Below are positions 29,651-46,661 of a stretch of 64,000 nt of DNA, piece by piece. The DNA is taken from the NCBI GenBank assembly GCA_051747385.1, contig JBNJGB010000031.1, positions 9,454 through 73,453 of the forward strand, in the 5' to 3' direction. The stretch comes from Myxococcota bacterium (GTDB lineage: Bacteria > Myxococcota_A > UBA9042 > PHBI01 > JACKFB01). Position numbers and translations under genes: made by a program. The stretch's first letter is position 1; each line of letters starts with the position of its first letter. A model generated the notes under the pieces. The model did no database searches, had not been told where the DNA came from, and saw only the letters and a program-made list of their open reading frames with translations.

Positions 29651-29659
29651 CCGTGGCTC

Positions 29660-31293: not shown

Positions 31294-31460
31294 CCAGGGC
31301 TCTCTCGCCGAGTGCATGGGGCGGCCTCCTTTGCTCACCGGGCACGACCCTTGCAAGGAGCAGGCCACCGAGACGACGCCGGACCCGATGTTCCTGTTTG
31401 AGAACAGGCGGTTCCACGGGTCCGTCCGGCGAGCCACCCATCACGAGCCTGGAGGAAGCC

Positions 31461-31733
31461 GTGGCCATCAGCGGCCTCATCGCGACCCTGGATTCAGACG
31501 CGCGACGCGCGGAGGACGCCGTCGCCGCGCTGTCGGAACACCCCGCCGTCGAGGTGGGCGAGCGGAGCGGCCTGCGCCTGCCCCTCGTCCTCGACACCCC
31601 GTCCTGGCGCGAGGACCGCACGGTCTACCGCTGGATCGAGGCCCTCGACGGCGTGCTCCACGTGGACGTCGCCTGCGTGTGGCTCGACGAGGAGACGGAT
31701 CCCCGCGCCCAGGCCCAGGAGGCCACCCGATGA
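31461..31733 (+). CDS. napD: NapD-like chaperone for periplasmic nitrate reductase
   Basis: GTG start 5 nt after a GGAGGA SD; 90 aa; NapD-like pattern (ISGLIA..., PAVEVGE.., GLRLPLVL, VLHVDVACVW); stop overlaps napA ATG. Confidence 0.6.
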   Translation: MAISGLIATLDSDARRAEDAVAALSEHPAVEVGERSGLRLPLVLDTPSWREDRTVYRWIEALDGVLHVDVACVWLDEETDPRAQAQEATR

Positions 31734-34165
31734 CCGATTGGAAGCCCCTCGACCGACGTGAGTTCCTCCGCCGCTCCGCCATGGCGACGGCGACGGCCGC
31801 CGCGGCCGCGCACCTCCCCGCCGGGATCGCCAGGGCCGGCACGCGCCCGACCGGGTCTCCACCGCCGGACATCGACGGCGTGAGGTGGGACAAGGCGCCG
31901 TGCCGGTTCTGCGGCACCGGCTGCCACGTCCAGGTGGGTACCCGCGGTGGCAAGGTGGTCGCGGTCGCCGGCGACGAGGCCGCCGACGTGAACAAGGGCC
32001 TGCTGTGCGTGAAGGGCTATCACGTGGGCGCCATCCTCTACGGCAAGGACCGCCTGACGAAGCCCCTGCTCCGCAAGGGCGGCAAGCTGCGGCCCGTGTC
32101 CTGGGACGAGGCCCTCGACGTCGTCGCCCGCCGCATCATGGCGAAGCCCGACGAGTTCGCGTTCTACGGGTCGGGCCAGTGGACCATCCCGGAGGGCTAC
32201 GCCGCCCAGAAGTTCACCAAGGGCGGCCTGTCCAACAACCACATCGACCCGAACGCGCGCCTGTGCATGGCCTCGGCGGTCACCGGCTTCATCTCCACCT
32301 ACGGCGTGGACGAGCCGAACGGCTGCTACCAGGACCTGGACGAGTGCGACGTGGTCATCACGTGGGGCAACAACCCCGCCGAGATGCACCCCGTCCTGTT
32401 CAGCCGCATCGTCGACCGTCGCTCCCGCGGCGAGGACGTGAAGCTCATCGACATCGGCACGCGCCGCACGCGGACGACGGAGCACGCCGACCACTACCTG
32501 CGCTTCGACCCGCACGGCGACCTGGCCATCGCCAACGGCATCGCCCACCTGCTGCTGGAAAACGGCACGTGGGACCGCGACTTCGTCGAGAAGAACTGCC
32601 ACTTCCGGCAGGACGAGGCGGAGCCCTCGCTCAAGGGCAAGCCGATGACCTTCGAGGCCTACAAGAAGGCGCTCGAGCCGTACACGCCGGACAAGGTCGA
32701 GGAGCTCTCCGGCGTCCCGGCCGACGACATCCGGATGCTGGGCGATCTCTTCGGCGACCCGGAGGTCAAGATCACCAGCCTCTGGTGCATGGGCATGAAC
32801 CAGCACACCCGGGGCACCGCCATCAACCGGCTGGTCCACGGCGTCCACCTGCTGAGCGGCCACTTCGGGAGGCCGGGCGACAACCCGACCAGCCTCACCG
32901 GGCAGCCCTCGGCCTGCGGCACCGCCCGCGAGGTCGGCACCCTGGCCCACGCCCTGCCGGGCGGCCGGATCGTCAAGAAGAAGGAGCACCGGGAGGACGC
33001 CGAGCGCATCTGGAACCTGCCGGCGGGCCGCGTGAACCCGAAGCCGGGCCATCACACGGTGAAGATGTGGGAGAGGTTCTGCACCCCGACGAGCGAGGGC
33101 GGCGACGTCACGACCCTCTGGGTGCAGGTGACGAACCCGGGGCACACGCTGCCGAACCTCCACAAGCTCTTCCGGGCGAAGGAGGGCCTGGAGGACAAGT
33201 TCCTCATCGTCTCGGACGTCTACCCGACGGCCACCACGGAGCTGGCCGACCTGGTGCTGCCCGCGGCCCTGTGGGTCGAGAAGAACGGCATGTTCGGCAA
33301 CTCCGAGCGGCGGACCCAGCAGTGGTTCCGCCAGGTCATGCCGCCGGGCGACGCCCGCGACGACTGCTGGCAGACCATCGCGGTGGCCCGGCGCCTGTAC
33401 GACCTGGGCTTCCCCGGGATGCGCGACAAGGACGGCCACTTCCTGTTCCGCGTGACCGACGACGACGGCCGCGAGGTCCCGGTCTGGGAGTGGGAGCACT
33501 ACTACGACGTCAACGTCGACGAGGCGCTGTTCGACGAGTACCGGGAGTTCTCGTTCAAGAAGCACAAGCACCTGGCGCCCTACAGCGAGTACGTGAAGGC
33601 GCGCGGCCTGCGCTGGCCGGTGGTCGAGCAGCCGGACGGGAGCTGGCGGGAGACGGGCTTCCGCTTCTCGGGCTTCGACGACCCGTTCGTCTCCGAGGGG
33701 AAGGACATCGAGTTCTACCACTCCACCACGGGCGACGGCCGGGCGCAGATCTGGTTCATGCCCCACGAGTTCCCGCCGGAGATGCCCGACGACGAGTACC
33801 CGTTCTGGCTCTGCACGGGCCGCGTCCTGGAGCACTGGCACACGGGGACCATGACCATCCGGGTGCCCCAGCTGAAGCGCTCCATGCCCACGGCCTACGT
33901 GGAGCTCCACCGGGACGACGCCCTGGAGCTGGGCGTGACCAACGGCGACGTGGTCGTCATCGAGTCCCGCCGCGGGGAGGTGGAGGTCCCGGTCTGGATC
34001 GACGGGCGGGGCAAGCCGCCGCGGCGCTACGCCTTCGTGCCGTTCTTCGACGAGACGAAGCTCGTGAACACCGTCACCCTCGACGCCCACGACCCCATCT
34101 CGAAGCAGCCGGACTACAAGAAGTGCGCGGTCCGGATCCGCAAGAGCACCGGGTCGAAGGCGTAG
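31730..34165 (+). CDS. napA: Periplasmic nitrate reductase catalytic subunit NapA (molybdopterin oxidoreductase)
   Basis: Twin-arginine signal DRREFLRRSAMATATAAAAA; N-terminal 4Fe-4S CRFCGTGC...C; full-length NapA-type molybdopterin domains. Confidence 0.9.
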   Translation: MTDWKPLDRREFLRRSAMATATAAAAAHLPAGIARAGTRPTGSPPPDIDGVRWDKAPCRFCGTGCHVQVGTRGGKVVAVAGDEAADVNKGLLCVKGYHVGAILYGKDRLTKPLLRKGGKLRPVSWDEALDVVARRIMAKPDEFAFYGSGQWTIPEGYAAQKFTKGGLSNNHIDPNARLCMASAVTGFISTYGVDEPNGCYQDLDECDVVITWGNNPAEMHPVLFSRIVDRRSRGEDVKLIDIGTRRTRTTEHADHYLRFDPHGDLAIANGIAHLLLENGTWDRDFVEKNCHFRQDEAEPSLKGKPMTFEAYKKALEPYTPDKVEELSGVPADDIRMLGDLFGDPEVKITSLWCMGMNQHTRGTAINRLVHGVHLLSGHFGRPGDNPTSLTGQPSACGTAREVGTLAHALPGGRIVKKKEHREDAERIWNLPAGRVNPKPGHHTVKMWERFCTPTSEGGDVTTLWVQVTNPGHTLPNLHKLFRAKEGLEDKFLIVSDVYPTATTELADLVLPAALWVEKNGMFGNSERRTQQWFRQVMPPGDARDDCWQTIAVARRLYDLGFPGMRDKDGHFLFRVTDDDGREVPVWEWEHYYDVNVDEALFDEYREFSFKKHKHLAPYSEYVKARGLRWPVVEQPDGSWRETGFRFSGFDDPFVSEGKDIEFYHSTTGDGRAQIWFMPHEFPPEMPDDEYPFWLCTGRVLEHWHTGTMTIRVPQLKRSMPTAYVELHRDDALELGVTNGDVVVIESRRGEVEVPVWIDGRGKPPRRYAFVPFFDETKLVNTVTLDAHDPISKQPDYKKCAVRIRKSTGSKA

Positions 34166-34168
34166 GCG

Positions 34169-34951
34169 ATGGAGGACAAGCCCGTGAAGAGCGACACCTC
34201 CGAGCGTTCGCCGGTCCTGACGGTGGCCCTGGCCGTGATCATCGGCGTGGCCCTGGCCGGCTTCTTCGTCGGCATCCGGCCGCTGCCCGAGTCCGCGCCC
34301 CCGGCCGCCGCCGCATCGGAATCCGACGGCGCCGCCCCGCAGGTGAGCGTCCAGCCCGCGAAGAGCTACACGGAGCTGTGGGAGACCGATCGTGGCCCCA
34401 ACGCCGGCGGCTTCTCCGACCTGGCGACCCTGCGCAAGAACGCGCCGGAGGCGCCCGGGACCGCCCCCGGGATGGAGGCGAAGCTGGCCTCCCTGGAGGC
34501 TCGGTCCGACAACCGCGCCTACGACGGCGCCCCGCCCACGGTCCCCCACGCCATCGACCCGCGGGACGCCTCGTCGTGCCTGACGTGTCACGGCGAGGGC
34601 GTGACCATGGCGGGCCGGACCGCCTCTCCCATCCCGCACCCGCCGTACGCGAACTGCACACAGTGCCACGCCCCGGACGGCGGGCCGCGCTGGGCGGACG
34701 AGCCGACTTCGACGGACAACTCCTTCGTCGGCCTGGCCGCGCCCACCGGCGGCCCCAAGGCACACCCGGCCGCGCCGCCGCAGATCCCGCACCCCACGCG
34801 GATGCGCTCGGACTGCGGAAGCTGTCACGGCCCCTACGGCGCGCCGGGGCTCCGGAGCACCCACTCGGACGACCGCCGGAGCTGCACCCAGTGCCACGCC
34901 CCGTCGGCGCAGGAGGACCGGCGCGACTGGTTCGACCAGGTGGAGATGTAG
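34169..34951 (+). CDS. Membrane-anchored tetraheme cytochrome c built from tandem NapB-like diheme modules
   Basis: N-terminal TM; two repeats each with PP.(V/I)PH...C(L/G)(T/S)CHG and C(T)QCHAP, as in NapB. Confidence 0.65.
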   Translation: MEDKPVKSDTSERSPVLTVALAVIIGVALAGFFVGIRPLPESAPPAAAASESDGAAPQVSVQPAKSYTELWETDRGPNAGGFSDLATLRKNAPEAPGTAPGMEAKLASLEARSDNRAYDGAPPTVPHAIDPRDASSCLTCHGEGVTMAGRTASPIPHPPYANCTQCHAPDGGPRWADEPTSTDNSFVGLAAPTGGPKAHPAAPPQIPHPTRMRSDCGSCHGPYGAPGLRSTHSDDRRSCTQCHAPSAQEDRRDWFDQVEM

Positions 34952-36208: not shown

Positions 36209-37537
36209 CTACGCCGGCCCCTCGCGCAGGAACTGCCGCAGCGTGATCCCGCGGATCCGGTCCGTCTCGAACGGCTCGCTGCCGACGACGACGAGGCGAC
36301 GCGAGGGCAGCGTCTTCGGGAACCACCCGAAGTCGAGGGGCCCGACGCGGCCGCGCTTCACCTCGACCATGGTGTCGTCGCCCACGACGAAGTCGACCTC
36401 GTGCTTGCGGCTGCTCCAGTAGGGGAGGAGCTCGGGGGCCTCGACGCCGGCGATGGCTGCGCGCCGCCACAGCTCCTGGGCCACCAGCCACTCGATCCAG
36501 GAGGCCTGCTGCTCCGGGGGCAGCCCGCGGAACTCGTCTACGGAGCGGAGCCGGGCCGGGTGCCAGCAGACGGCCGCCAGCAAGTTGATGAACGGGTACT
36601 TCGCCGGTCTTCGCGTGGCGCGGACCTGCTTCGACTCATCCCAGGCGTGGGAGAGCCCCAGCACCAGGATGTCGGCCAGCTGCTCGACGTAGCCGGCCGC
36701 CACGGTGTTGTTGGCCAGACCCGCCTCCCGGGCCAGCCGTGCCTGGCCCACCGGGGTCCCGCCTCGCCGCAGCAGGACGTCCATGACCGCCATGAGCGCG
36801 GCGCGAGACCGCCCGGAGCGGGCCATCTCGCCGTGGATCCAGTCCCGCACGATCTCGACGACGAACGGGCTGAGTCGCCCCTCCGTGGCCAGCTCGGCGA
36901 GGGCGACGGGGCTCCCTCCGGACAGGAGGTAGACCCACACTGCGTCATCCGGGCTCACCCGGGGCTCGTGGCCCTGGCAGCAGGCCTCCTCGAAGGCGGA
37001 GAAGGACACCGGCGTGAAGTACCAGCTCGTGCGCTCGAGCCGCCCCTTGCGCCCGGGGAGACGCTCGGCCCCGCGCCTCAGGTCCGTCGCGCGAGAGCCG
37101 GTCGTGATCACCAGCACGCGCTCCAGCGTCCCCGCGTCCACCAAACGCTTGAGGGCCCGCTCCCACTCGTCGACGGCGGTGATCTCGTCGATGAACAGTC
37201 GCCGCACCGCCGCCTCGCGGGCATACAGCGGGACGACCGCCTCCACGGCCTCGCGGAGCGCAGCGGCGTCCGTGATCTCGTCCCCGTTCAAGTAGAAGGC
37301 CGAGCCCGGCCCGAACTCGTCGATGGTGCGCCGGACCTGCGCCTCCAGCCACGTGCTCTTGCCGTACTGCCGGGCGCCCCGGATCAGCAGGATACCGGGC
37401 TCGGTCGGCAGACGCTCCAACCCGAAATCCACGTCGAAGCGCACAGCCCGGCGCTCCACCCGGTCCAGGTGTGGCAGGACCCCCGGCTGGTCGATGGCGC
37501 CGCGGAACAGCGCGTCGTTGATATCACTAACGTCCAC
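36209..37537 (-). CDS. AAA-family ATPase with DUF4143-like C-terminal region
   Basis: Walker A GARQYGKST, Walker B RRLFIDEI; 442 aa; GTG start embedded in a palindromic operator. Confidence 0.75.
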   Translation of the reverse strand: MDVSDINDALFRGAIDQPGVLPHLDRVERRAVRFDVDFGLERLPTEPGILLIRGARQYGKSTWLEAQVRRTIDEFGPGSAFYLNGDEITDAAALREAVEAVVPLYAREAAVRRLFIDEITAVDEWERALKRLVDAGTLERVLVITTGSRATDLRRGAERLPGRKGRLERTSWYFTPVSFSAFEEACCQGHEPRVSPDDAVWVYLLSGGSPVALAELATEGRLSPFVVEIVRDWIHGEMARSGRSRAALMAVMDVLLRRGGTPVGQARLAREAGLANNTVAAGYVEQLADILVLGLSHAWDESKQVRATRRPAKYPFINLLAAVCWHPARLRSVDEFRGLPPEQQASWIEWLVAQELWRRAAIAGVEAPELLPYWSSRKHEVDFVVGDDTMVEVKRGRVGPLDFGWFPKTLPSRRLVVVGSEPFETDRIRGITLRQFLREGPA

Positions 37538-37569: not shown

Positions 37570-37662
37570 CAACAATCAGTCCTCCGTCTCACGCCTTGAC
37601 GCCCACCGGAGGAGGGTCATCCTCGGGGTGAGACCTCCCCTTCGCGAGGCGCCGAGGTGCCC

Positions 37663-38853
37663 ATGCGGACCGCGCCGCACGTCCTCGTCCTCCTCGTCGC
37701 CGTGTCCCTGCCGGCCGGGGCGGCGGCGCCCGAGCCCTGCGATCCGGACGAGGCCCTGTGCGAGGCGCCGGCCGTCCCGGAGGGGCCGGCGGCCGAGGAG
37801 GCGGCCACGGAGGCGGCTTCGGACACCCTGGTCGTGTTCTGGGGCGTGGGCTGCCCGCGCTGCGAGGAGGCCCGGCCGTTCGTGCGCGAGCTGGTTCGAC
37901 GCACCCCCGGGCTCGAGGCCGAGTGGGTCGAGGTCCGCCGGAGCGAGGAGGGGCGCCGCCGCTTCGAGCGCACCATGCGGCGCCTCGACGCCCGCGCGGT
38001 GGGCCTGCCGACCTTCGTGCTCGGCGACGGCTACGTCGTCGGCTGGCAGGCCGGGGTGACGGACGAGCGGCTCACGACGCTGGTCCGCGGGTCGGAACCC
38101 GGCTCTCCGGCCGCCCTGGTGCTCCCGCTGGTCGGCGAGATCGACCCCTCGGCCTGGTCGCTCCTGGCGCTCACCCTGGTCATCGGCCTGGTAGACGGCG
38201 TGAACCCCTGCGCCATGTGGGTGCTGGTGGTCCTGCTCAGCATCCTCGTCCACGTGCGCTCGAGGCGCCGCCTGCTCCTCTTCGGCGGCACGTTCGTCCT
38301 CGTCTCGGGCTTCGTCTACTTCCTGTTCATGACGGCCTGGATCGGCGTGTTCGGGCTCCTCGGCCTGTCGCGCGCGGTCACGATCGTCCTGGGCGCCGTG
38401 GTCACGGCCATGGGGCTGGTGAACCTCAAGGAGGTCTTCTGGTTCAAGCGCGGGCCGTCACTCATGATCCCGGAGAAGGCCAAGCCCGGCCTCTACCGGC
38501 GCATGCGCGGCATCGCCCGCTCCGGCCGCCTGCCCGCGGCGCTGGCCGGCATCACCGCCCTGGCCTTCCTGGTGAACCTGGTGGAGCTTGGCTGCACCCT
38601 CGGCCTGCCGGCCATCTACACGCGCCTCCTCAGCCTGCGGACCGAGCTGTCCACCGCCGAGCGCCTGGGCTGCCTGGCGCTCTACAACACGGCCTATATC
38701 GTCCCCCTGGCCCTCATCGTGGTCACCTATGCCGTGACGCTCCACCGCGTGACGCTGGGCGAGCGCAGCGCCCGCGCCCTCAAGGGCATCAGCGGCGTGG
38801 TCCTGGTGATCCTCGGCCTCCTGCTCCTCCTCGCGCCGGAGGCCGTGGGCTAG
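37663..38853 (+). CDS. Thiol:disulfide interchange protein: periplasmic thioredoxin-like domain fused to CcdA/DsbD-like transmembrane domain
   Basis: Signal peptide; WGVGCPRCEE (CxxC); TM core with GVNPCAMW and LGCTLGLP cysteines typical of DsbD/CcdA. Confidence 0.75.
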   Translation: MRTAPHVLVLLVAVSLPAGAAAPEPCDPDEALCEAPAVPEGPAAEEAATEAASDTLVVFWGVGCPRCEEARPFVRELVRRTPGLEAEWVEVRRSEEGRRRFERTMRRLDARAVGLPTFVLGDGYVVGWQAGVTDERLTTLVRGSEPGSPAALVLPLVGEIDPSAWSLLALTLVIGLVDGVNPCAMWVLVVLLSILVHVRSRRRLLLFGGTFVLVSGFVYFLFMTAWIGVFGLLGLSRAVTIVLGAVVTAMGLVNLKEVFWFKRGPSLMIPEKAKPGLYRRMRGIARSGRLPAALAGITALAFLVNLVELGCTLGLPAIYTRLLSLRTELSTAERLGCLALYNTAYIVPLALIVVTYAVTLHRVTLGERSARALKGISGVVLVILGLLLLLAPEAVG

Positions 38854-39744: not shown

Positions 39745-40668
39745 CTAGACCCCGCTCTCCAGCGGTTCGCGCGCCTCCAGCCAGGTCGCCGGGACGCCCT
39801 CCCGGCCGGTGAAGGCCGCCACGATGCCGCCCACGATGGCGCACGTGGTGTCGCGATCGCCCCCGGCGGACACGGTGGTCCACATGGCGGCCTCGAAGTC
39901 CTCCAGGTGGCGAGCCGCGGACCAGAGGCAGAAGCCGACGGTGTCCTGGGCCGTGATGCGGCTGCCGTTGCCCAGGTTCGCGACCGCCGTCGTGACGGTC
40001 TCCTCCGGGTCGAGGCCGCGGGCGGTCTCCACGTGATCGCGGACCTCGCTGTCGGGCGTGACGGCGAGCGCCGCGTCGAACAGGGCCCTCGGCTCCGTCT
40101 CGCCGTCCGCGCCCTGGCGCGCGGCCTCGCCCGCGGCCGCCGAGACCGCGATCGCGCCGGCGCGGCCCTCCGGGTGGGCGTGGGTGACCCGCGCGGAGAC
40201 GTCGGCCTCCTGGGCGAGCCGCTCCGGGTCGTCGGCGAAGTACGCCCCCAGCGGGGCCACGCGCATGGCGCCGCCGTTGCCGAACGAGCCCGAGCCGCGG
40301 AACAGCGCCGGGGCCTCCACGCGCCAGTCCGCGCCGCCCCCGAAGGCCGGAAGGAGCCGGTGCGCTCCGGGCCCGTAGCCGCGCCCCGGCCGCCGCGCGT
40401 AGCGGTGGGCGAAGCGCCTCGCGAGCGCGTCCGGGTCCACGCGCCCGTGGGCCTCCAGGACGTCCACGATCGCCAGGGCCATCTCGGTGTCGTCCGTGTA
40501 GCGCCACGGCGATCGGGGGAGCGCCCGTCGGGCCACCAGCTCGGCGAGGCGGTCCGAGTGCGCGAAGAAGCGCTCTCCGAACGCGTCCCCGACGGAGAGC
40601 CCCTCGAGGGACGTGCGCGCCCGCTCCAGGCGCGCCTCGGCGTCTGTCGACATGCTGTTGCGAGCCAT
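39745..40668 (-). CDS. ADP-ribosylglycohydrolase family protein (DraG-like)
   Basis: GDAFGE, WRYTDDTEMALAIV, GNGGAMRVAPLGAYF, GGDRDTTCAIVGG motifs; start at 40668 (alternative 40653). Confidence 0.8.
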   Translation of the reverse strand: MARNSMSTDAEARLERARTSLEGLSVGDAFGERFFAHSDRLAELVARRALPRSPWRYTDDTEMALAIVDVLEAHGRVDPDALARRFAHRYARRPGRGYGPGAHRLLPAFGGGADWRVEAPALFRGSGSFGNGGAMRVAPLGAYFADDPERLAQEADVSARVTHAHPEGRAGAIAVSAAAGEAARQGADGETEPRALFDAALAVTPDSEVRDHVETARGLDPEETVTTAVANLGNGSRITAQDTVGFCLWSAARHLEDFEAAMWTTVSAGGDRDTTCAIVGGIVAAFTGREGVPATWLEAREPLESGV

Positions 40669-40862
40669 GTCGTCCAGCCTATCATTCCGGGCCGGGAGCG
40701 GGCGACGCGGTGAAACCGCCTGCCCTGCCCGATTCTTGGTCGACCGGGTGTCTGTGATAGCTTGCCGCCCGTGATCCCGGGGGAGGGAGCAGGCCACCCA
40801 CGGCCGGACGATGCGGCAGCAGGACCGCCGTCTCCGCCGGCGGAACCAGGAGGACAGCCCGA

Positions 40863-43187
40863 GTGAGCAGCCGCCGCCGCGCCCTGTTCGTCAACCCGCC
40901 GCTGTTCGTGGGGACGGACTTCATCGACTACCCGTACTTCGCGGACTACGGCCTCCTCGTGTCGGCGGCCTGGACCGCGCGCGCCGGGTGGGCGGTGGAC
41001 GTGGTGGACGCCTTCGCGCGGCCCGGCTCGGGCAAGCACCCCCACGGCGACCACTTCCTCCTGGGCGTCCCCAACGACGCCATGCTGGAGGCGATGCCCG
41101 AGGAACCGGTCGACGTGGTGGCCGTCGCGAGCACGCCGTTCCTCAAACCCCAGGACCCGCGGCCGGAGACCCGCGAGCTGATCGCGGCCCTCCGCGAGCG
41201 CTATCCCGACGCCGCTCTCATCCTGGCGGACTGCCACTTCGGCGGCATGCACACGGTCGAGGTGGACCTCGAGGACGTCCTGGCGGCCATGCCGGACCTC
41301 GACGCGCACCTCCGCTACGCCGGGGACGCCTGGTTCTCGGAGCCGGAGCGCCTCCTGGACCTGAAGGGCACGAAGCAGGCCGTGGACGCCGCCGCGCACC
41401 CCTGGCGGAGCTCCCACAGCCCGCCATTTCCGCTCCTCGACGCGCTGGACCGGGAGCACCACCGGCGCTTCCTGGCGTCCTGCTTCGCGGACGGCTCCTG
41501 GTCGAACCCCTTCGACGTCACGCCGGACACCCTGCCCTTCATGACCAGCGGCGGCTGCGTGCACCGCTGCATCTTCTGCACCTCCAACCCGGGCTGGCAG
41601 ACCGTGGGCCGCAAGCCGTACCGCGCCGTGCCCCTGGAGTGCATCGAGCAGTGGGCCTATCTCCTCGTGAAGGGCCTGGGCGCGCGGAAGCTGATGATCC
41701 TCGACGAGATCGCCAACCTGCGCCCCGACTTCGAGGAGGTCCTGGAGGTCTTGGAGAAGCTGGACCTCCGCTACGACTTCCCCAACGGCGTGCGGGCGGA
41801 CTACCTCGCCGACAGCGCCATCGAGCGGATGAAGGGCCGGGTGAACAGGCTGTCCGTGTCGGTCGAGAGCGGGGACGCGGCGGAGCTCTCGGGCCCCATC
41901 GCCAAGCGCCTGGACCCGAACGAGGTGGAGCGCGTCGCGCGGACGGCGCACCGGGTCGGCGTGCCGCTCATGGTCCACTACATCATCGGCTTCCCGTGGG
42001 AGACGCCGCGGCAGGTGCTCGACACGCTGGAGTTCGCCTGGCGGCTCCACGAGCAGTACGGCGCCGAGCCGGCGGTCCAGTACGCGACGCCGCTGCGGGG
42101 CACGCCGCTCCACGAGATGTGCCTGGAGCAGGGCCTCACCACGAAGCAGGGCGCGGACTCCACGGACCCGGCGCTGTTCCAGCACGAGCCCTCCTACGTC
42201 CCGCCGAACATCCCGCCCGGCTGGCTCGAGACGGCCAAGGGCGCGCTGGAGGCCAAGCTGAAGGCGGCGCGCGAGCGCAAGGTGATCATGAACATCACCT
42301 ACTCGTGCGACAACAACTGCGAGTTCTGCGCCACGGGCGACCGCGTGCGGAAGATCATCCCCTGGCCGCGGGTCGAGCGCATCCTGCGCGAGCACTGGGA
42401 CCAGGGCATCGGCCAGCTGGACATCGACGGCGGCGAGCCGACGCTGCACCCGAACCTCGTGGACGCCATCCGGCTGGCGACGGACCTGGGCTATCACCGC
42501 ATCAACATCACCAGCAACGGCCGGCGCCTCGCGGACCCCGAGCGCGCCCGGGAGCTGGTGCAGAGCGGCCTGACGAGCCTGCTCATCTCCATGCACGGCC
42601 ACACGCCGGAGCTGCACGACCGCATCGTGCGGAAGCGCGGCGCCTTCGATCAGACCGTCGCCGGCATCCGGAACGCCCTGGCGTACATGTCCGAGGACGT
42701 GGACTTCGGCGTGAACATCACCATCGTGCGGAACAACGTGGACCACCTGGAGGAGTTCACGCAGCTCGCCTGGGACCTGGGCGCGCGGAAGGTGAACTAC
42801 CAGATGCTCACGCCGTTCGGGAACGCCGAGACCCGCTACACGGACGAGGACATCGTCCCGCCCGAGCGCGAGGTGGCCGCCCGCCTCTGCGAGGTCATCG
42901 AGCGCTGGAGCGACCGGCTGCGCATCTTCGTCGTCAACGCGCAGCCCTGCCTCTTCCCGGGCTACGAGCGCTACGTCCTGCCGGACCTCCAGAAGCTGGG
43001 GCGCACGATGGTCTTCGTGTGGGACGAGGAGGTGAACCTCTTCGAGTACCTCGGCGCGCGCCGCGAGCGCGTGGAGATCTGCGAGTCCTGCCCCCACAGC
43101 ATCAACTGCCAGGGCTTCTTCGACTTCGAGTCGGACTACGAGCCGCCCCGCGAGGTCCGCGACTTCCTGGGAGGTGCCCGTGCCTGA
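40863..43187 (+). CDS. Bifunctional radical-SAM protein: cobalamin-binding class-B radical SAM domain fused to a SPASM-type radical SAM domain
   Basis: GTG start 8 nt after AGGAGGA; N-terminal B12-binding-like region (ALFVNPPLFVG...GLLVSAAW...VDVVD); CVHRCIFC (Cx3Cx2C); second core NITYSCDNNCEFCATGD...IDGGEPTLHPN...ITSNGRRL and C-terminal CESCPHSINC auxiliary-cluster cysteines. Confidence 0.8.
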   Translation: MSSRRRALFVNPPLFVGTDFIDYPYFADYGLLVSAAWTARAGWAVDVVDAFARPGSGKHPHGDHFLLGVPNDAMLEAMPEEPVDVVAVASTPFLKPQDPRPETRELIAALRERYPDAALILADCHFGGMHTVEVDLEDVLAAMPDLDAHLRYAGDAWFSEPERLLDLKGTKQAVDAAAHPWRSSHSPPFPLLDALDREHHRRFLASCFADGSWSNPFDVTPDTLPFMTSGGCVHRCIFCTSNPGWQTVGRKPYRAVPLECIEQWAYLLVKGLGARKLMILDEIANLRPDFEEVLEVLEKLDLRYDFPNGVRADYLADSAIERMKGRVNRLSVSVESGDAAELSGPIAKRLDPNEVERVARTAHRVGVPLMVHYIIGFPWETPRQVLDTLEFAWRLHEQYGAEPAVQYATPLRGTPLHEMCLEQGLTTKQGADSTDPALFQHEPSYVPPNIPPGWLETAKGALEAKLKAARERKVIMNITYSCDNNCEFCATGDRVRKIIPWPRVERILREHWDQGIGQLDIDGGEPTLHPNLVDAIRLATDLGYHRINITSNGRRLADPERARELVQSGLTSLLISMHGHTPELHDRIVRKRGAFDQTVAGIRNALAYMSEDVDFGVNITIVRNNVDHLEEFTQLAWDLGARKVNYQMLTPFGNAETRYTDEDIVPPEREVAARLCEVIERWSDRLRIFVVNAQPCLFPGYERYVLPDLQKLGRTMVFVWDEEVNLFEYLGARRERVEICESCPHSINCQGFFDFESDYEPPREVRDFLGGARA

Positions 43188-44106
43188 ACGCCCCGGGACC
43201 ATGATCGACCTGATCATGGGCTACGAGTGCAACGTGCGGTGCGACTACTGCTCCATCTTCGACGAGCTTCGCCCGAAGAACATGAGCACCGCCCAGATCC
43301 TGGCGGAGCTTCAGCGTGCCTGGGCCCAGGGCATCCACCGCGCGGCCTTCGGCGGCGGCGAGCCGACCATCCGGAAGGACTTCCTGCCGCTCGTCCGATG
43401 GTGCCGGGATCGGGGCTTCGACCACGTGAAGGTGGCCTCGAACGGGATGATGTACTCCTACGAGGACTACGCCCGAAAGGCCGTCGACGCCGGAGTCACG
43501 CAGTTCAACATCTCCGCCATGGGCCACACGGAGGCCCTGTACAACCGCATCATGGCCACGCCGAAGGCCCTCGGCCTGGTGCGGAAGGGCGTGGACAACC
43601 TCATCGCCCTGGGCCAGGAGCCCGCCCTGGACCTCATCGTCAAGGCGGACACCTGGCGCCGGATCCCCGACACCGTCGCCTGGTGGGCCGACCAGGGCGT
43701 GAAGACGTTCAGCCTCTGGCTCGTGTCCCTGACCGACCGGAACGCGCAGTTCCCCGAGTCCATGCCCCGGGTGAGCGAGATGCGCGAGGGCTTCACGGGC
43801 GCCTTCGACATCGCCCGCGAGCGGGGCCTGAAGGTCACCACGCGCCACGTCCCCCGCTGCATGCTCCGCGGCTACGAGGACCACGTCGAGGACGTCAGCA
43901 CCCAGGACGTCCTCATCGTCACGCCGGGCGAGCGCTTCCACATCACCGACTCGGTCATCAGCCCGAACGCCCTGACCGACAAGTGCGAGGGCTGCCGCTT
44001 CGCCGGCGACCCCTGCATCGGGATGCGCCGGGATTACCTGGAGCGCTACGGCGACGACGAGATCGAGCCCTATTTCGACGACACGGCCGGCGCCGCCACG
44101 GCATGA
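43174..44106 (+). CDS. Radical SAM protein with C-terminal twitch/SPASM-like cysteines
   Basis: GYECNVRCDYCS (Cx3Cx2C), FGGGEPTI, ASNG; C-terminal CEGCRFAGDPC; start at GTG 43174 or ATG 43201; overlaps the upstream stop. Confidence 0.8.
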   Translation: MPVPERPGTMIDLIMGYECNVRCDYCSIFDELRPKNMSTAQILAELQRAWAQGIHRAAFGGGEPTIRKDFLPLVRWCRDRGFDHVKVASNGMMYSYEDYARKAVDAGVTQFNISAMGHTEALYNRIMATPKALGLVRKGVDNLIALGQEPALDLIVKADTWRRIPDTVAWWADQGVKTFSLWLVSLTDRNAQFPESMPRVSEMREGFTGAFDIARERGLKVTTRHVPRCMLRGYEDHVEDVSTQDVLIVTPGERFHITDSVISPNALTDKCEGCRFAGDPCIGMRRDYLERYGDDEIEPYFDDTAGAATA

Positions 44107-46064
44107 GGGCGCTCGTCGACGTCGGCCACGGGTGCAACAACCGGTGCACCTTCTGCAGCGTGGCCCCCACCCGCGAGTCGGAGGCCTCCACGGAGGCCCT
44201 GGCCCGGAAGATCGACCGCGCGGCCGCTCTGGGCCACACCATGGTGGTCCTCACCGGCGGCGAGCCGACCATCCGCCGCGACCTCCCGCGCCTGGCGAAG
44301 CGCGTCGCGGCCCGCGGCATGGATCTGGGCCTCGTCACCAACGCCCGGATGCTGGCCTATCCGAAGCTGGCCGATCTCCTCGCGGACCGCCGCCTCACCT
44401 GGGTCCACGCCTCCGTCCACGGCGGCACGCCCGAGGTCCACGACGCCATCGTCGGCGACGCGGCCTTCGAGCAGACCCTCGCGGGCGTCCGCACCTGCCT
44501 CGCCCGCGGCGTCGCCGTCCACCTCCACTGCGTCGTGACGCGCGCCAACCTCCACCACCTCCGCGGCGTGGTCGACCTGCTGTCGGACCTCCCCGGCGGC
44601 ACCCTGGCTTTCGCCCCGGTGGAGCCGGTGGGCGACGCCGCCCGCGACGACTCGCAGGTCCCCTCCCCCGAGGAGGCCGCCCGAGCCATCGCCGACGCCA
44701 TCCGCCACGGCGACTCGCGAGAGCACCGATCGGGCGTGCGGACCGCGGGTCTCCGAGGGATTTCCGAGTGGATCGGCCAGGCGCGCAGCGCCGGTGCTGC
44801 GTCCCGAGCCATGCCATCAGGCATGGCGCAGCGGTCGCGGCAGGCCGAGGCGCCGGAAATCGCCGGTAGCCCAACGGGAGCACGGTCGTTCGGTGCTCCA
44901 GGCCTCTCCGGCCGCGTGGCGCACCAGGACGTGCCCCTGTGCCTGCTGCCGGGCCTGGAGGACCGCTGGACCGACCCCCGCGCCCGGGGGTTCACGCGCC
45001 GCAGCCGCGTCGCGGACGACGACCTCCTCCCCCTCGACCGGGGCGGCCGGGTGCAGCCCGAGCCATGCACCGACTGCGCCCTGCGCGGCCGCTGCCCGGG
45101 CCTCCACGAGGCCACGCTGGAGACCTTCGGCGCGGGCATGCTGACGCCGAAGCTGGCGCACCGCTCCAACTCCTACAACTTCGTCCCCGGCGGCTCGGCC
45201 ACCTGGGAGGCCGGGGCGCCCTGCCCGCTCCTGGACCGCGGCCCGCACGTGCTCGACCGCACGCGCGACGTGTTCCTCCGACAGGGCGAGACGATGACGC
45301 GCTACGAGACGGCCACCCGCGACTTCGCCGAGGCCGAGCTTCGCGCCACCAAGCACGTCCACGGCCAGGTCTACGTGGACATCACGGACAAGACGGCCCC
45401 GGACGACTTCGCCGCGGACCTGCGCAAGCTGGTGCGCGTCCCGGAGTGCGCGCCCTGCCCGGCCCGCGACGCCTGCCCCAACTGCTACGAGGCCCTGGAC
45501 GAGGACGTCTTCACCCGCGACGACGCCCTCCTCCGGGACCTCATCGCCGGCCTGGAGGGCGACGTCCTCGACGTCGGCTGCGGCGACGGCCGCTACGGCG
45601 ACGTCCTGGGCCCCCTGGTCGAGTCGGGCCGCATCCGCTACCGCGGCCTCGACCCGCACGCCCCGACCGTCGAATCCCTCCGGGAGCGCTGGCCCTGGGC
45701 CACCCTCGAGGTCGGCCGCGCCGAGGACCTGGACCTGCCGCCCGAGTCCCTCGACCACGCCTTGGTGCTCCGCTCCTGGAACCACCTGGAGCGCCCCCGC
45801 GACGTCCTCACGGTCCTCACGAAGGCCCTCCGCCCCGGCGGCACCCTCCTCGTCGCCGACAACGTCGCCTTCGGCCTGCTCCGCAGCCCCACCCAGGCCA
45901 GCCGCGCCGAGACGGGCCCCTCCGAGTTGGAGCACTTCCGCAACCACAGCGCCACCCAGGCCCGAGCCCTCCTCGAAGCCCTCCCCCTGACCGTCGAGGC
46001 CTTCCACGAGGTCGGCCCCCGCACCAGCAACCAGTGGGTGCTTCACGCGCGGCGGACGGGTTGA
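44103..46064 (+). CDS. Radical SAM (SPASM-type) domain fused to a class I SAM-dependent methyltransferase domain
   Basis: ATGA overlap with the upstream gene; GHGCNNRCTFCS, LTGGEPTI, VTNARM; CTDCALRGRCPG and CAPCPARDACPNC cysteine clusters; C-terminal VLDVGCGDGRYG (MTase motif I) and LLVADN (motif II-like). Confidence 0.8.
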   Translation: MRALVDVGHGCNNRCTFCSVAPTRESEASTEALARKIDRAAALGHTMVVLTGGEPTIRRDLPRLAKRVAARGMDLGLVTNARMLAYPKLADLLADRRLTWVHASVHGGTPEVHDAIVGDAAFEQTLAGVRTCLARGVAVHLHCVVTRANLHHLRGVVDLLSDLPGGTLAFAPVEPVGDAARDDSQVPSPEEAARAIADAIRHGDSREHRSGVRTAGLRGISEWIGQARSAGAASRAMPSGMAQRSRQAEAPEIAGSPTGARSFGAPGLSGRVAHQDVPLCLLPGLEDRWTDPRARGFTRRSRVADDDLLPLDRGGRVQPEPCTDCALRGRCPGLHEATLETFGAGMLTPKLAHRSNSYNFVPGGSATWEAGAPCPLLDRGPHVLDRTRDVFLRQGETMTRYETATRDFAEAELRATKHVHGQVYVDITDKTAPDDFAADLRKLVRVPECAPCPARDACPNCYEALDEDVFTRDDALLRDLIAGLEGDVLDVGCGDGRYGDVLGPLVESGRIRYRGLDPHAPTVESLRERWPWATLEVGRAEDLDLPPESLDHALVLRSWNHLERPRDVLTVLTKALRPGGTLLVADNVAFGLLRSPTQASRAETGPSELEHFRNHSATQARALLEALPLTVEAFHEVGPRTSNQWVLHARRTG

Positions 46065-46087
46065 GACCGCCTAGGTAGAGGTCGGGA

Positions 46088-46381
46088 TCACGCGACACGG
46101 GTGAGGTCGTCCTCGATCCGGGTCCGCAGGCGCGGCTTCACCATCCTGTCGGTGGCGAGGTCCACGGGGCGCTGGAGAAGCTCCTCGAGCCGATCCTCGA
46201 GGGCGAAGTAGCCGCGGAGAGTGGGCCTCGCGCGGAAGGTCACCACGACGTCGACGTCGCTGTCGGGCCGAAGGTCACCGCGCGCGGCGGAGCCGAACAC
46301 GGCCAGCGAGGCCACGTCGAACTCCTCTCGGAGCTCATCGGCGTGGCTTCGCAGCGTGGCCAGGACGTCCGGTTTGCTCAT
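46088..46381 (-). CDS. Nucleotidyltransferase-domain protein (MNT-type, antitoxin-like)
   Basis: LAVFGSAARGDLRPDSDVDVVV (GS...D.D motif). Confidence 0.7.
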   Translation of the reverse strand: MSKPDVLATLRSHADELREEFDVASLAVFGSAARGDLRPDSDVDVVVTFRARPTLRGYFALEDRLEELLQRPVDLATDRMVKPRLRTRIEDDLTRVA

Positions 46382-46661
46382 GGCGGGACCCGTCCGGTTT
46401 CGGAGCATCGGCTTGCGCCGTCACGGAGAGGATAGCGCGGGGTCGGCCGACGCGCGAACCGTGGAGCAGAACACGCTCTTGCGGAAGCGCCACGTAGCGG
46501 AACACCACGATGAGTCCGCGGAAGCGTCTCCGGATCGGGGCTTCCGGGGCTCGAAGCCCCTGGCCCAGGTTGATCCCGCCCAGCCGGCGACACTCCCGCG
46601 TCATGTAGCGGATGTCCGACTGGACGAGCCCCTCGAGCCGACTCGAACGGAACGTCGACAT
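46335..46661 (-). CDS. Hypothetical protein upstream of and overlapping the MNT gene; possible degenerate HEPN-like partner
   Basis: Position and size fit a TA partner, but no clean Rx4-6H HEPN motif is seen. Confidence 0.25.
   Translation of the reverse strand: MSTFRSSRLEGLVQSDIRYMTRECRRLGGINLGQGLRAPEAPIRRRFRGLIVVFRYVALPQERVLLHGSRVGRPRAILSVTAQADAPKPDGSRHEQTGRPGHAAKPRR

What the first reader, a model, noticed from the sequence alone, without database searches (positions are those of the whole stretch)
40863..43187. Single polypeptide carrying two complete radical-SAM cores (B12-class N-terminal, SPASM-class C-terminal)
Residues about 1-450 form a cobalamin-binding radical SAM (B12-like N-terminus, CVHRCIFC). 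Residues about 455-774 form an independent radical SAM (YSCDNNCEFC, GGEPT, SNG, C-terminal Cx2Cx5C auxiliary-cluster motif). Fusion of a class-B methylase to a second radical-SAM catalytic domain is rare and implies two successive radical reactions on one substrate, e.g. C-methylation followed by epimerisation or crosslinking. The continuous frame with no stop between the halves argues against a sequencing-error fusion, though a single-nt indel could hide a gene boundary near residue 450.
Basis: seen in the sequence. Interest (0 to 1): 0.6.

Follow-up and report, generated by a model that had tools for sequence, protein, structure and literature searches.

The report
Conserved two-headed radical SAM enzyme
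This gene really encodes one protein with two complete radical-SAM catalytic cores, a widespread but unstudied family that in related bacteria sits in clusters modifying a His-Gly-Ser repeat peptide, so it is a lead for new enzyme chemistry and not an assembly error.

Summary
ORF 40863-43187 (+, 774 aa) is one uninterrupted coding frame. It has two CX3CX2C radical-SAM cores and a 4-Cys auxiliary-cluster motif, all invariant in 65 homologues.

The fusion is not an artefact. More than 120 protein clusters of 746-779 aa and 152 species-level genomes carry it, mainly Myxococcota and Binatia. NCBI calls the same 774-aa protein.

- The N-half belongs to the "B12-binding-like domain + rSAM" group, but its closest structure is AprD4, which does not bind cobalamin. 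Methylase activity is unproven.
- The C-half is HxsC/BlsE/MoaA-like with one auxiliary cluster. It is not a full SPASM domain.

The gene heads a tightly packed three-gene module: the dual enzyme, a 310-aa HxsC-like rSAM, and a 653-aa rSAM fused to a class I methyltransferase.

In relatives this module lies in expanded "type 4" His-Xaa-Ser systems. These carry an HxsA4 precursor with 13-29 His-Gly-Ser repeats ending in Trp, plus HxsB and HxsD.

The window has no precursor, HxsB or HxsD. A peptide-maturase role here is therefore inferred (about 0.5), with the substrate encoded elsewhere. No curated family or paper covers the dual protein.

The parts
40849..40854 (+). Shine-Dalgarno sequence GGAGGA, 8 nt before the GTG start
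   Evidence: Read directly from the sequence.
40863..43187 (+). Dual radical-SAM gene, 774 aa (NCBI MGM0577865.1)
40863..41525 (+). N-terminal Rossmann-like (B12-binding-like) domain, residues about 1-221; cobalamin binding not established
   Evidence: The model shows alternating beta-alpha elements at E6-11, H29-40, E44-49, E85-89, H101-113, E118-122, H136-142 and E148-152. The whole N-half superposes on AprD4, MgmA, TokK and TsrM. PF02310 is hit only weakly in 5 of 65 relatives and in P0127.
41526..42167 (+). Radical-SAM core I, residues about 222-435, with CX3CX2C at 41556-41579 (C232, C236, C239)
   Evidence: HpnJ and AprD4 profiles align to residues 225-435. AprD4 chain 6fd2 aligns to profile positions 222-431. 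The Cys triad is invariant, as are the D281, S333/E335 and G376-T381 positions.
42168..42278 (+). Conserved connector between the halves, residues about 436-472, containing helix 454-470
   Evidence: Invariant F439, Q440, H441, P443, G453 and A458. The region is modelled with high confidence, and pTM is 0.88 for the whole chain.
42279..42842 (+). Radical-SAM core II (HxsC/BlsE/MoaA-like), residues about 473-660, with CX3CX2C at 42306-42329 and GGEP at residues 523-526
42948..43109 (+). Auxiliary-cluster region: C696 (42948-42950) and C740-x2-C743-x5-C749 (43080-43109)
   Evidence: All four Cys are invariant in 65 sequences, while C676 is not. There is no PF13186 SPASM hit.
43174..44106 (+). 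Second gene: HxsC-like radical SAM of 301-310 aa. The start is ambiguous: GTG 43174, GTG 43180 (GGAGG five nt upstream) or ATG 43201. With either GTG start it overlaps the stop codon of the dual gene. CX3CX2C is at 43228-43251. Auxiliary Cys are C229 and C271-x2-C274-x6-C281.
   Evidence: Orthologues (54-65% identity) follow the dual gene directly in 46 of 46 loci that have at least 47% N-half identity and downstream sequence.
44103..46064 (+). Third gene, 653 aa (NCBI MGM0577867.1): an HxsC-like radical SAM (CX3CX2C at 44133-44156, Cx2Cx5C at 45066-45095), a Cx2Cx5Cx2C motif (from 45447) and a class I SAM methyltransferase (motif I from 45564). Its ATG overlaps the previous stop codon (ATGA).
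   Evidence: Orthologues in L005 and L008 are 47-60% identical.

Best explanation
Shown: the ORF encodes a genuine, conserved enzyme with two radical-SAM active sites. Residues 1-435 form a Rossmann-like (B12-binding-like) domain plus radical-SAM core I. A conserved helical connector follows. Residues 473-774 form an HxsC/BlsE/MoaA-like radical-SAM core II with a single four-Cys auxiliary [4Fe-4S] site. The protein should therefore bind three clusters and cleave SAM at two separate sites.

Strongly inferred: it works as one module with the two tightly packed downstream genes, a 310-aa HxsC-like rSAM and an rSAM-methyltransferase fusion. Together they supply four radical-SAM domains and one conventional methyltransferase.

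Inferred, about 0.5: the module is a tailoring set of a 'type 4' His-Xaa-Ser system. Its substrate would be an HxsA4-type peptide, with a leader followed by ...AQH(C/M)SHASHGS(HGS)nW. The fused enzyme would carry out two different radical steps on the repeats. Fusion would keep the two sites together in fixed one-to-one proportion on a substrate carrying 13-29 repeats. In this genome the precursor and HxsB/HxsD would have to be encoded outside the window.

Speculative: the chemistry of each half. The N-half could perform methyl transfer if cobalamin is bound, or otherwise an AprD4-like non-methylating radical reaction. The C-half could perform H-abstraction followed by cross-linking or oxidation assisted by the auxiliary cluster.
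For: A single frame with GC3 near 1.0 throughout.

Two PF04055 stretches. Both Cys triads, GGEP and four auxiliary Cys are invariant in 65 homologues.

The model is confident, with pLDDT 90.2 and pTM 0.88. Fold matches are AprD4, MgmA, TokK and TsrM for the N-half, and BlsE, SuiB, SkfB, viperin and MoaA for the C-half.

The family is conserved: more than 120 clusters at 49-66% identity with 96-100% coverage, and 152 relatives among species-representative genomes.

The 310-aa rSAM follows the dual gene in 46 of 46 close loci.

The same modules recur in other fusions: N-half + methyltransferase (L066), methyltransferase + N-half + rSAM (P0138) and a triple rSAM (P0127).

An HxsA4-like gene lies within 10 kb in 24 of 52 loci that have at least 5 kb on both sides. 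HxsB is present in 24 and HxsD in 22 of those loci.

The precursors score 102-144 bits against NF038313 HxsA4 (cut-off 55). HxsB scores 506 bits (cut-off 370), and HxsD and HxsD_rel score above their cut-offs.

The window's closest relatives (L005, L008, L009; 57-67% identity) carry HxsA4, and L005 and L008 also carry the same rSAM-methyltransferase gene.

Precursor copies also occur far from maturase genes (L012, L022, several metagenome loci), so encoding the substrate in trans is plausible.

In the canonical HXS system, HxsB, HxsC and HxsD are all needed to mature the HxS-repeat protein HxsA (PMC13128918).
Against: The 64-kb window has no HxS-repeat ORF, no HxsB and no HxsD.

None of the related 'dual + 310-aa rSAM + methyltransferase' loci carries them either. 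In L011 this triad is flanked by FtsK, a TPR protein and a secretion ATPase.

The reverse association is weak. Among about 15 metagenome HxsA4 loci longer than 5 kb that showed any rSAM or Hxs neighbour, the dual protein appeared once (L141). HxsB and HxsD were the usual neighbours.

The C-half scores far below the HxsC cut-off (82 against 268) and the HxsC4 cut-off (119 against 500).

A UbiA prenyltransferase sits directly upstream of the dual gene in L006, L008 and L009, which leaves a non-peptide substrate open.

No experiment on any family member was found.
Confidence: 0.5

Rival explanations
1. The N-half is a cobalamin-dependent class-B C-methyltransferase and the C-half is a SPASM epimerase or cross-linker. 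They act in succession on one RiPP.
For: The N-half superposes on the true cobalamin-dependent methylases MgmA, TokK, TsrM and CysS. It also gives weak hits to P-methyltransferase and MCR glutamine-methylase profiles. PF02310 is weakly detected in relatives.
Against: The best structural and near-best profile match is AprD4, which does not bind cobalamin. PF02310 does not match the window protein. The module already contains a conventional class I methyltransferase. There is no SPASM hit, and there are only four auxiliary Cys.
Confidence: 0.25
2. The module modifies a small molecule, lipid or cofactor rather than a peptide. In this window it is a self-contained three-gene pathway.
For: The triad-only loci, including the window, have no precursor, HxsB or HxsD, and at least one has housekeeping flanks. 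UbiA prenyltransferase is adjacent in L006, L008, L009 and L090, and a DegT aminotransferase is present in L008. The closest solved structures for both halves act on small molecules: AprD4, BlsE, MoaA and viperin.
Against: HxsA4, HxsB and HxsD co-localise in about half of the well-flanked loci, including the window's nearest relatives. An aKG-HExxH peptide hydroxylase homologue sits in the clusters. The UbiA-containing clusters L008 and L009 also carry HxsA4.
Confidence: 0.2
3. One half is catalytically dead and serves only as a scaffold or substrate-binding domain.
For: No direct evidence supports this. Degenerate radical-SAM domains are known in other families, for example the NCBIfam 'pseudo-SAM' model listed.
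Against: Both CX3CX2C triads and the SAM-contact motifs of both halves are invariant across 65 sequences that are only 50-66% identical to the window protein.
Confidence: 0.05
4. The fusion is an artefact: two adjacent genes joined by a sequencing or assembly indel.
Against: The codon-position signal is continuous. The fusion recurs in hundreds of independent assemblies from different sources and in cultured Nannocystis and Chondromyces genomes. The connector is conserved and confidently modelled.
Confidence: 0.01

Closest known systems
HXS antiphage system (HxsA/HxsB/HxsC/HxsD; TIGR03976-03979; Li et al., Nat Commun 2026, PMC13128918)
   Same: The C-half, the 310-aa rSAM and the N-terminal domain of the third gene all resemble HxsC (NF038332 HxsC4 is the top NCBIfam hit for the first two). 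Each carries one extra Cys cluster motif. Relatives of the dual gene sit beside bona fide HxsB and HxsD and a His-Xaa-Ser repeat precursor.
   Different: The canonical system has four genes and one HxsC. [quoted passage not shown] The clusters here carry up to about 12 rSAM domains, a B12-like rSAM domain, methyltransferases and a 100-130 aa precursor with 13-29 HGS repeats. The window itself lacks HxsA, HxsB and HxsD, and the C-half fails the HxsC and HxsC4 cut-offs.
NCBIfam 'type 4' Hxs models: NF038313 (HxsA4) and NF038332 (rare HxsC4)
   Same: The precursors next to relatives of this gene pass the NF038313 cut-off. HxsC4 is the top hit for the C-half.
   Different: No gene in the window or in the inspected clusters reaches the HxsC4 cut-off of 500 bits. 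No NCBIfam or Pfam model describes the dual protein. No paper in the searchable library mentions HxsA4 or HxsC4.
AprD4 (PDB 6fd2) and the cobalamin-dependent class-B radical SAM enzymes (TokK, TsrM, MgmA, CysS)
   Same: The N-half has the same two-domain layout, a Rossmann-like domain followed by the radical-SAM core. It superposes on these structures with E = 4e-14 to 1e-9.
   Different: Sequence identity is only 14-18%. Cobalamin binding is undetermined. None of these enzymes carries a second radical-SAM core.
FbiC (FO synthase, a CofG-CofH fusion)
   Same: It is one polypeptide with two radical-SAM domains, each generating its own 5'-deoxyadenosyl radical for one product. It also exists as two separate polypeptides in other organisms (PMC11917521).
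   Different: The domain families are unrelated. FbiC has no B12-like domain and no auxiliary-cluster domain, and its substrates are small molecules.
BlsE, MoaA, SkfB and PqqE (the twitch/SPASM branch of radical SAM enzymes)
   Same: The C-half matches their core with E = 1e-16 to 1e-9. Its C-terminal Cys motif is compatible with one auxiliary cluster.
   Different: The seven-Cys SPASM signature is absent and PF13186 gives no hit. All equivalog scores are far below their cut-offs.

Membership tests
Radical SAM superfamily (PF04055), present twice | A CX3CX2C motif binding the SAM-cleaving [4Fe-4S] cluster, within a partial TIM barrel | tested here: met
   Two PF04055 stretches, 137 bits against a cut-off of 29.5. 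C232/236/239 and C482/486/489 are invariant. Both barrels are modelled and match solved rSAM structures.
Radical SAM superfamily (PF04055), present twice | SAM-contact motifs (GGE-type and later strands) present in both halves | tested here: met
   In the C-half, GGEP 523-526 is invariant. In the N-half, D281, S333/E335 and G376-F-P-W-E-T381 are invariant. Assigning these N-half residues to the SAM-contact motifs rests on my knowledge of class-B/HemN-type motifs.
Cobalamin-dependent (class B) radical SAM methyltransferases | An N-terminal cobalamin-binding domain (PF02310) | tested here: inconclusive
   A Rossmann-like fold is predicted and superposes on class-B enzymes. PF02310 is not hit in the window protein. 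It is hit weakly in 5 of 65 relatives (best E = 0.011) and at 27.8 bits (below the 32.1 cut-off) in P0127. The best match, AprD4, lacks cobalamin.
Cobalamin-dependent (class B) radical SAM methyltransferases | Methyl transfer to the substrate via methylcobalamin | not testable with these tools
   This needs cofactor analysis and an activity assay.
Curated class-B equivalogs (HpnJ, AprD4 family, PhpK, MgmA and others) | Score above the NCBIfam cut-off | tested here: not met
   HpnJ 51.5 against 577.6. AprD4 40.3 against 500. PhpK 25.9 against 600. MCR Gln-methylase 19.1 against 360.
SPASM domain (PF13186) | A seven-Cys motif binding two auxiliary [4Fe-4S] clusters | tested here: not met
   No PF13186 hit at E below 1 in any of 65 members. 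Only C696, C740, C743 and C749 are invariant after core II.
Twitch-like or partial SPASM domain (one auxiliary cluster) | A C-terminal extension after the barrel with three or four conserved Cys | tested here: met
   Four invariant Cys. The same C...Cx2Cx5-6C pattern occurs in the two downstream rSAM proteins. Cluster binding itself was not tested.
HxsC (TIGR03977) and HxsC4 (NF038332) | Score above the curated cut-off | tested here: not met
   C-half: HxsC 82.4 against 267.9, and HxsC4 119 against 500.
His-Xaa-Ser (Hxs) system, type 4 | A neighbouring HxsA-type His-Xaa-Ser repeat precursor | tested here: not met
   In the window there is no run of three or more H-x-S triplets in any frame and no match to precursor leaders. 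Relatives do meet this feature: 24 of 52 well-flanked loci, with NF038313 scores of 102-144 bits against a cut-off of 55.
His-Xaa-Ser (Hxs) system, type 4 | Neighbouring HxsB (TIGR03978) and HxsD (TIGR03976) | tested here: not met
   In the window, tblastn with HxsB and HxsD from L001 found no hit at E = 1e-3. In L001, HxsB scores 506.5 against 370 and HxsD 55.2 against 50. HxsB is present in 24 and HxsD in 22 of 52 well-flanked loci.

The most novel reading that the evidence does not exclude
The dual enzyme is a tailoring component of an uncharacterised, very large radical-SAM pathway. Some clusters hold at least 12 rSAM domains plus methyltransferases, a peptide hydroxylase and a prenyltransferase. 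The pathway would hyper-modify His-Gly-Ser repeat peptides (HxsA4), some of which carry twin-arginine export signals. The fused protein would carry out two chemically distinct radical reactions per repeat, one from a B12-like core and one from an HxsC-like core. This would be an enzyme architecture and a product class that nobody has described. It may relate to the periplasmic antiphage role just shown for the simple HXS system, or to metal binding.
Probability: 0.35. Interest if true: 0.8.

Novelty: new variant of a known kind. Interest (0 to 1): 0.55.

Why it matters
Single polypeptides with two radical-SAM active sites are hardly studied. FbiC is the textbook case. Here a B12-like core is fused to an HxsC-like core in a family found in more than 150 species-level genomes, including cultivable Nannocystis and Chondromyces, yet no curated family or paper describes it.

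The link to HxsA4 repeat peptides gives this family a concrete candidate substrate. It also connects the family to the HXS system, which was shown in 2026 to block phage DNA entry and whose chemistry is still unsolved (a +8 Da change).

Working out what four or more radical-SAM domains do to a (His-Gly-Ser)n peptide could reveal new post-translational chemistry. It would also test whether fusion serves processive modification of repeats.

Tried and rejected
- **My first gene calls downstream were wrong.** I called 44132..44869 and 44939..46078. The frame plot, tblastn and translation showed one gene, 44103..46064, and NCBI's model confirmed it.
- **PADLOC gave only generic viperin-type rSAM hits.** No defence-system assignment came out of it.
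- **No precursor was found in the window.** Regular-expression scans of six frames, Tandem Repeats Finder and relaxed tblastn with five precursor leaders all found nothing.
- **A 40-aa ORF between the 310-aa rSAM and HxsD in L001 was considered as a precursor and rejected.** It is not conserved, because L002 has only an 83-nt gap there.
- **Apparent split versions of close relatives were rejected.** L049 is broken into three ORFs. L091 changes frame near residue 190, not at the domain junction. Both look like frameshifts or pseudogenes.
- **Most short 'C-half only' hits lie on 1-2 kb contigs.** They are truncated fragments.
- **The 338-aa gene after the stand-alone N-half in L089 is not a degenerate C-half.** BLASTP gives E = 0.98.
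- **The window's neighbours do not belong to the module.** The ADP-ribosylglycohydrolase (included as a tblastn reference) matched none of the 88 related loci. The MntA-like, AAA_14/DUF4143 and thioredoxin-like membrane protein genes have no counterpart among the called genes of the inspected related clusters.
- **The promoter and terminator scan was uninformative**.
- **The window protein is not in the contig index,** so the remaining 17 kb of its 81-kb contig could not be read.
- **Literature searches found nothing on this family.** Searches for multi-domain radical SAM proteins and for HxsA4/HxsC4 returned no relevant paper.
Full report
**1. The observation**

The window is about 72% G+C, so long spurious ORFs occur in every frame. 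I separated real genes from these using codon-position G+C.

The frame of ORF 40863..43187 keeps third-position G+C at 0.93-1.00 in all sliding windows from 40870 to 43119. This includes the suspected junction at 42150-42300, and there is no phase change.

The translation is 774 aa. A GGAGGA Shine-Dalgarno sequence lies 8 nt before the GTG start. NCBI's annotation of the source MAG, a Myxococcota bacterium on an 81-kb contig, calls the identical protein, MGM0577865.1.

Pfam's Radical_SAM model matches twice, E = 6.5e-40.

| Motif | Residues | Window coordinates |
|---|---|---|
| CVHRCIFC | C232, C236, C239 | 41556-41579 |
| CDNNCEFC | C482, C486, C489 | 42306-42329 |
| GGEP | 523-526 | not computed |
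| Auxiliary Cys | C696, then C740-x2-C743-x5-C749 | 42948-43109 |

**2. The fusion is real**

A search of 5.8 billion proteins returned more than 120 clusters of 746-779 aa. They cover 96-100% of the query at 49-66% identity and come from NCBI, JGI, ENA and Logan assemblies.

A scan of one genome per species found 152 relatives. Most are Myxococcota, including cultured Nannocystis punicea FL3, Nannocystis sp. RBIL2 and Chondromyces apiculatus DSM 436. Others are Binatia, Thermodesulfobacteriota and Terriglobales.

Of 88 loci inspected, 84 have both halves contiguous in one frame. Two are cut by contig ends, and two (L066, L084) carry a different fusion.

In an alignment of 65 full-length members, both Cys triads, GGEP and four auxiliary Cys are invariant. 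So are several residues of the segment between the halves: F439, Q440, H441, P443, G453 and A458.

AlphaFold2 with this alignment gives pLDDT 90.2 and pTM 0.88 for the whole chain, with a confident helix at 454-470 joining the halves. This indicates an integrated two-domain enzyme and not two genes joined by a loose linker.

**3. What each half is**

*N-half.* The rSAM core (about residues 222-435) aligns with HpnJ, AprD4, PhpK and MCR-glutamine-methylase profiles, all far below their curated cut-offs.

Residues 1-221 are predicted as an alternating beta-alpha, Rossmann-like domain. The whole N-half superposes on AprD4 (6fd2, E = 4e-14, TM 0.65-0.68 on the target), and on MgmA, TokK, TsrM and CysS. 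The PDB profile search agrees, with AprD4 at 4.6e-15.

So the half belongs to the "B12-binding-like domain + rSAM" group. Three results argue against assuming a methylase:
- Pfam's B12-binding model does not match this protein, and matches only 5 of 65 relatives weakly (best E = 0.011).
- The closest structure, AprD4, is a diol dehydratase. A 2026 review lists it among enzymes of this group that do not bind cobalamin (PMC12931638).
- The module already encodes a conventional class I methyltransferase.

"Class-B methylase" is therefore a possibility, not a finding.

*C-half.* The best hits are the NCBIfam models HxsC4 (119 bits, cut-off 500) and HxsC (82 bits, cut-off 268), followed by ScmF, MoaA, AhbD and PqqE. 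The best structures are BlsE, SuiB, SkfB, viperin and MoaA.

There is no SPASM (PF13186) hit in any of the 65 members. Only four Cys after the barrel are invariant, which is enough for one auxiliary cluster. The half is a partial SPASM or twitch-like domain, not a full SPASM domain.

**4.

Two further radical-SAM genes follow the dual gene.

- **43174 (or 43180, or 43201)..44106** encodes a 301-310 aa HxsC-like rSAM. With either GTG start it overlaps the dual gene's stop codon. The 43180 start has GGAGG five nt upstream.
- **44103..46064** overlaps the previous stop as ATGA. I mis-called this region at first (section 8). It encodes 653 aa: an HxsC-like rSAM, two further Cys motifs and a class I SAM methyltransferase. 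Methyltransf_11 matches at 5.5e-12. NCBI calls the same protein, MGM0577867.1.

The three genes thus carry four rSAM domains and one methyltransferase.

The 310-aa rSAM directly follows the dual gene in 46 of 46 loci that have at least 47% N-half identity and downstream sequence.

The flanking genes in the window do not appear to belong to the module. The divergent ADP-ribosylglycohydrolase matched none of the 88 related loci when used as a tblastn reference. The MntA-like nucleotidyltransferase, the AAA_14/DUF4143 ATPase and the thioredoxin-like membrane protein were identified. None has a counterpart among the called genes of the inspected related clusters.

**5. Context in relatives**

Four recurring arrangements emerged:

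| Type | Lineages | Gene order |
|---|---|---|
| A | Binatia and various 'Deltaproteobacteria' MAGs, about 50% identity | rSAM617 - rSAM626 - rSAM345 - DUAL - rSAM310 - HxsD - HxsD-like - HxsB - aKG-HExxH peptide hydroxylase homologue |
| B | Includes the window | DUAL - rSAM310 - methyltransferase (or rSAM-methyltransferase). In L011 the flanks are FtsK, a TPR protein and a secretion ATPase |
| C | The window's nearest relatives, 57-67% identity (L005-L009) | Many rSAM genes; a UbiA prenyltransferase directly upstream in L006, L008 and L009; the same rSAM-methyltransferase gene in L005 and L008; lipobox proteins with 18 Cys |
| D | Polyangia, Archangium, Nannocystis; 33-41% identity | DUAL alone or next to a 554-aa rSAM |

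In type A, HxsB scores 506 bits (cut-off 370), HxsD 55 (cut-off 50) and HxsD_rel 60 (cut-off 41). The hydroxylase homologue scores 81 against TIGR04267 (cut-off 40).

Reading the small genes of these clusters revealed a conserved precursor of 100-130 aa. Its sequence runs ...LPxLRKxPLDFLSxxEARQAVKP...LLAQH(M/C)SHASHGS(HGS)nW-stop, with 13-29 His-Gly-Ser repeats in the complete copies.

The three precursors tested pass NCBIfam NF038313, "His-Xaa-Ser repeat protein HxsA4", at 102-144 bits against a cut-off of 55.

Such a gene lies within 10 kb of the dual gene in 24 of 52 loci that have at least 5 kb on both sides. These span types A, C and D. HxsB is present in 24 and HxsD in 22 of the same loci.

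**6. Domain shuffling supports a shared function**

A HMMER search of 1.8 billion cluster representatives with the N-half alone found 86 proteins below 1e-30. Fused proteins of 745-790 aa were the commonest length class among the best hits. Other architectures also appeared:

| Architecture | Example |
|---|---|
| Stand-alone N-half homologues, 465-486 aa, 30-43% identity | P0131 in L089 |
| N-half + methyltransferase | L066, L084 |
| Methyltransferase + N-half + rSAM | P0138, 1055 aa |
| Triple rSAM | P0127, 1069 aa |
| Five rSAM and four B12-binding domains | P0197, 2331 aa |
| C-half with only the tail of the N-half | P0297 in L090, inside an HxsB/HxsD/UbiA cluster |

The same partners recombine repeatedly. 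That is the pattern expected of proteins that work on one substrate.

**7. Mechanism and its limits**

*Shown.* There are two intact SAM-cleaving sites and one auxiliary-cluster site in one conserved polypeptide. The gene is tightly packed with two more rSAM proteins and a methyltransferase.

*Inferred.* The module tailors an HxsA4-type repeat peptide, and fusion keeps two different radical catalysts together on a substrate with many identical repeats. The precedent is the canonical HXS system. There, HxsB, HxsC and HxsD are all required to process and modify the HxS-repeat protein HxsA, which then blocks phage DNA entry from the periplasm (PMC13128918).

*Against, for this window.* No HxS-repeat ORF, HxsB or HxsD occurs in the 64 kb, nor in any type B locus.

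A reverse test points the same way. I pulled 80 HGS-repeat loci from metagenomes by DNA pattern. HxsB and HxsD were the usual neighbours, and the dual gene appeared only once, in L141. The dual enzyme is therefore an accessory of a subset of HxsA4 systems, not a core part.

The same data show precursor copies far from any maturase gene: second copies in L012 and L022, and long loci with a precursor but no rSAM. A substrate encoded in trans is therefore plausible.

I put the peptide-maturase reading for this window at about 0.5. A small-molecule or lipid role (UbiA, DegT, housekeeping flanks) is at about 0.2. The specific chemistry of each half remains speculation.

**8. Comparison with known systems, and novelty**

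The closest known systems are:
- the HXS system and NCBIfam's partial "type 4" models (HxsA4, HxsC4);
- AprD4 and the class-B enzymes for the N-half;
- BlsE, MoaA and SkfB for the C-half;
- FbiC as the established example of two rSAM domains in one chain (PMC11917521).

The protein fails every curated equivalog cut-off tested. No paper in the searchable library mentions HxsA4, HxsC4, HGS-repeat peptides or a fusion of this type. I rate it a new variant of a known kind: a radical-SAM maturation system of the Hxs type with an undescribed two-headed enzyme.

**9. Dead ends and limits**

- My first downstream gene calls (44132..44869 and 44939..46078) were wrong and were corrected as described in section 4.
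- Apparent splits in L049 and L091 are frameshifts away from the domain junction.
- Short "C-half only" hits are contig-end fragments.
- The remaining 17 kb of the source contig, and the rest of the MAG, could not be examined.
- Model coordinates cannot be inspected with these tools. The geometry between the two active sites and the presence of a corrin pocket therefore remain untested.

Noticed in passing
window 44103-46064 (+): The third gene fuses an HxsC-like radical SAM domain to a class I SAM methyltransferase. An extra Cx2Cx5Cx2C motif (residues 449-461) lies between them. In other triad loci the equivalent gene is the methyltransferase part alone, about 310 aa.
   Followed up: partly
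L005 3792-5672 and 6388-8262; L008 213-2060: These 615-626 aa proteins each contain two HxsC-like radical-SAM domains. This is a second, different dual-rSAM architecture. In L005 the two such genes flank the HxsA4 precursor gene. The 22-kb L005 cluster carries at least 12 rSAM domains.
   Followed up: partly
P0197 (2331 aa), P0243 (2279 aa), P0164 (1318 aa), P0127 (1069 aa): These are giant multi-rSAM fusion proteins. P0197 has five Radical_SAM stretches, four B12-binding domains and a SPASM domain. P0127 and P0164 each have three rSAM stretches. P0243 showed four matched stretches to the N-half but was not scanned against Pfam.
   Followed up: no
L006 898-2142; L005 8268-9605 and 13354-14571: These proteins have a lipobox signal peptide, an Ala/Pro-rich linker and a domain with 18 Cys. 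They have no Pfam family and recur in the clusters closest to the window. They could be a second substrate class or an export partner. They are absent from the window.
   Followed up: partly
L088 6836-6979, L085 17898-17987, L075 7958-8218: The HxsA4-type precursors in L088 and L085 carry twin-arginine motifs (TRRDLL and TRRDFL) followed by a hydrophobic stretch. The L075 precursor has a hydrophobic, signal-like segment without the RR motif. This suggests export after cytoplasmic maturation.
   Followed up: no
L012 (3610-3753 and 20393-20536), L022, L096, L110; L092, L108, L114, L140: HxsA4 precursor genes occur in two copies per locus, or on long contigs with no radical-SAM gene within the flanks. 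Precursors can therefore be encoded away from their maturases.
   Followed up: partly
L066 10001-12421; L084 (same MAG as the full-length copy in L049): The N-half is fused to a methyltransferase instead of the HxsC-like C-half (806 aa in L066).
   Followed up: partly
window 36209-37537 (-), 39745-40797 (-), 46088-46408 (-): Three neighbours look defence- or toxin-antitoxin-like: an AAA_14/DUF4143 ATPase (PADLOC PDC-S01), an ADP-ribosylglycohydrolase divergent from the dual gene, and an MntA-like nucleotidyltransferase antitoxin. Only the ADP-ribosylglycohydrolase was searched against the related loci, and it matched none.
   Followed up: partly
window 28340-34951: This region holds a molybdopterin oxidoreductase (1038 aa) with adjacent multihaem cytochrome c genes and an NrfD-type membrane subunit. 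It looks like a respiratory complex. The overlapping ORFs at 30610-31437 (-) and 31049 (+) need proper gene calling.
   Followed up: no
window 37657-38853 (+): A 398-aa protein has a signal peptide, a thioredoxin-like GCPRC motif and a polytopic membrane domain (DsbD/CcdA-like by eye). It has no Pfam or NCBIfam hit.
   Followed up: no
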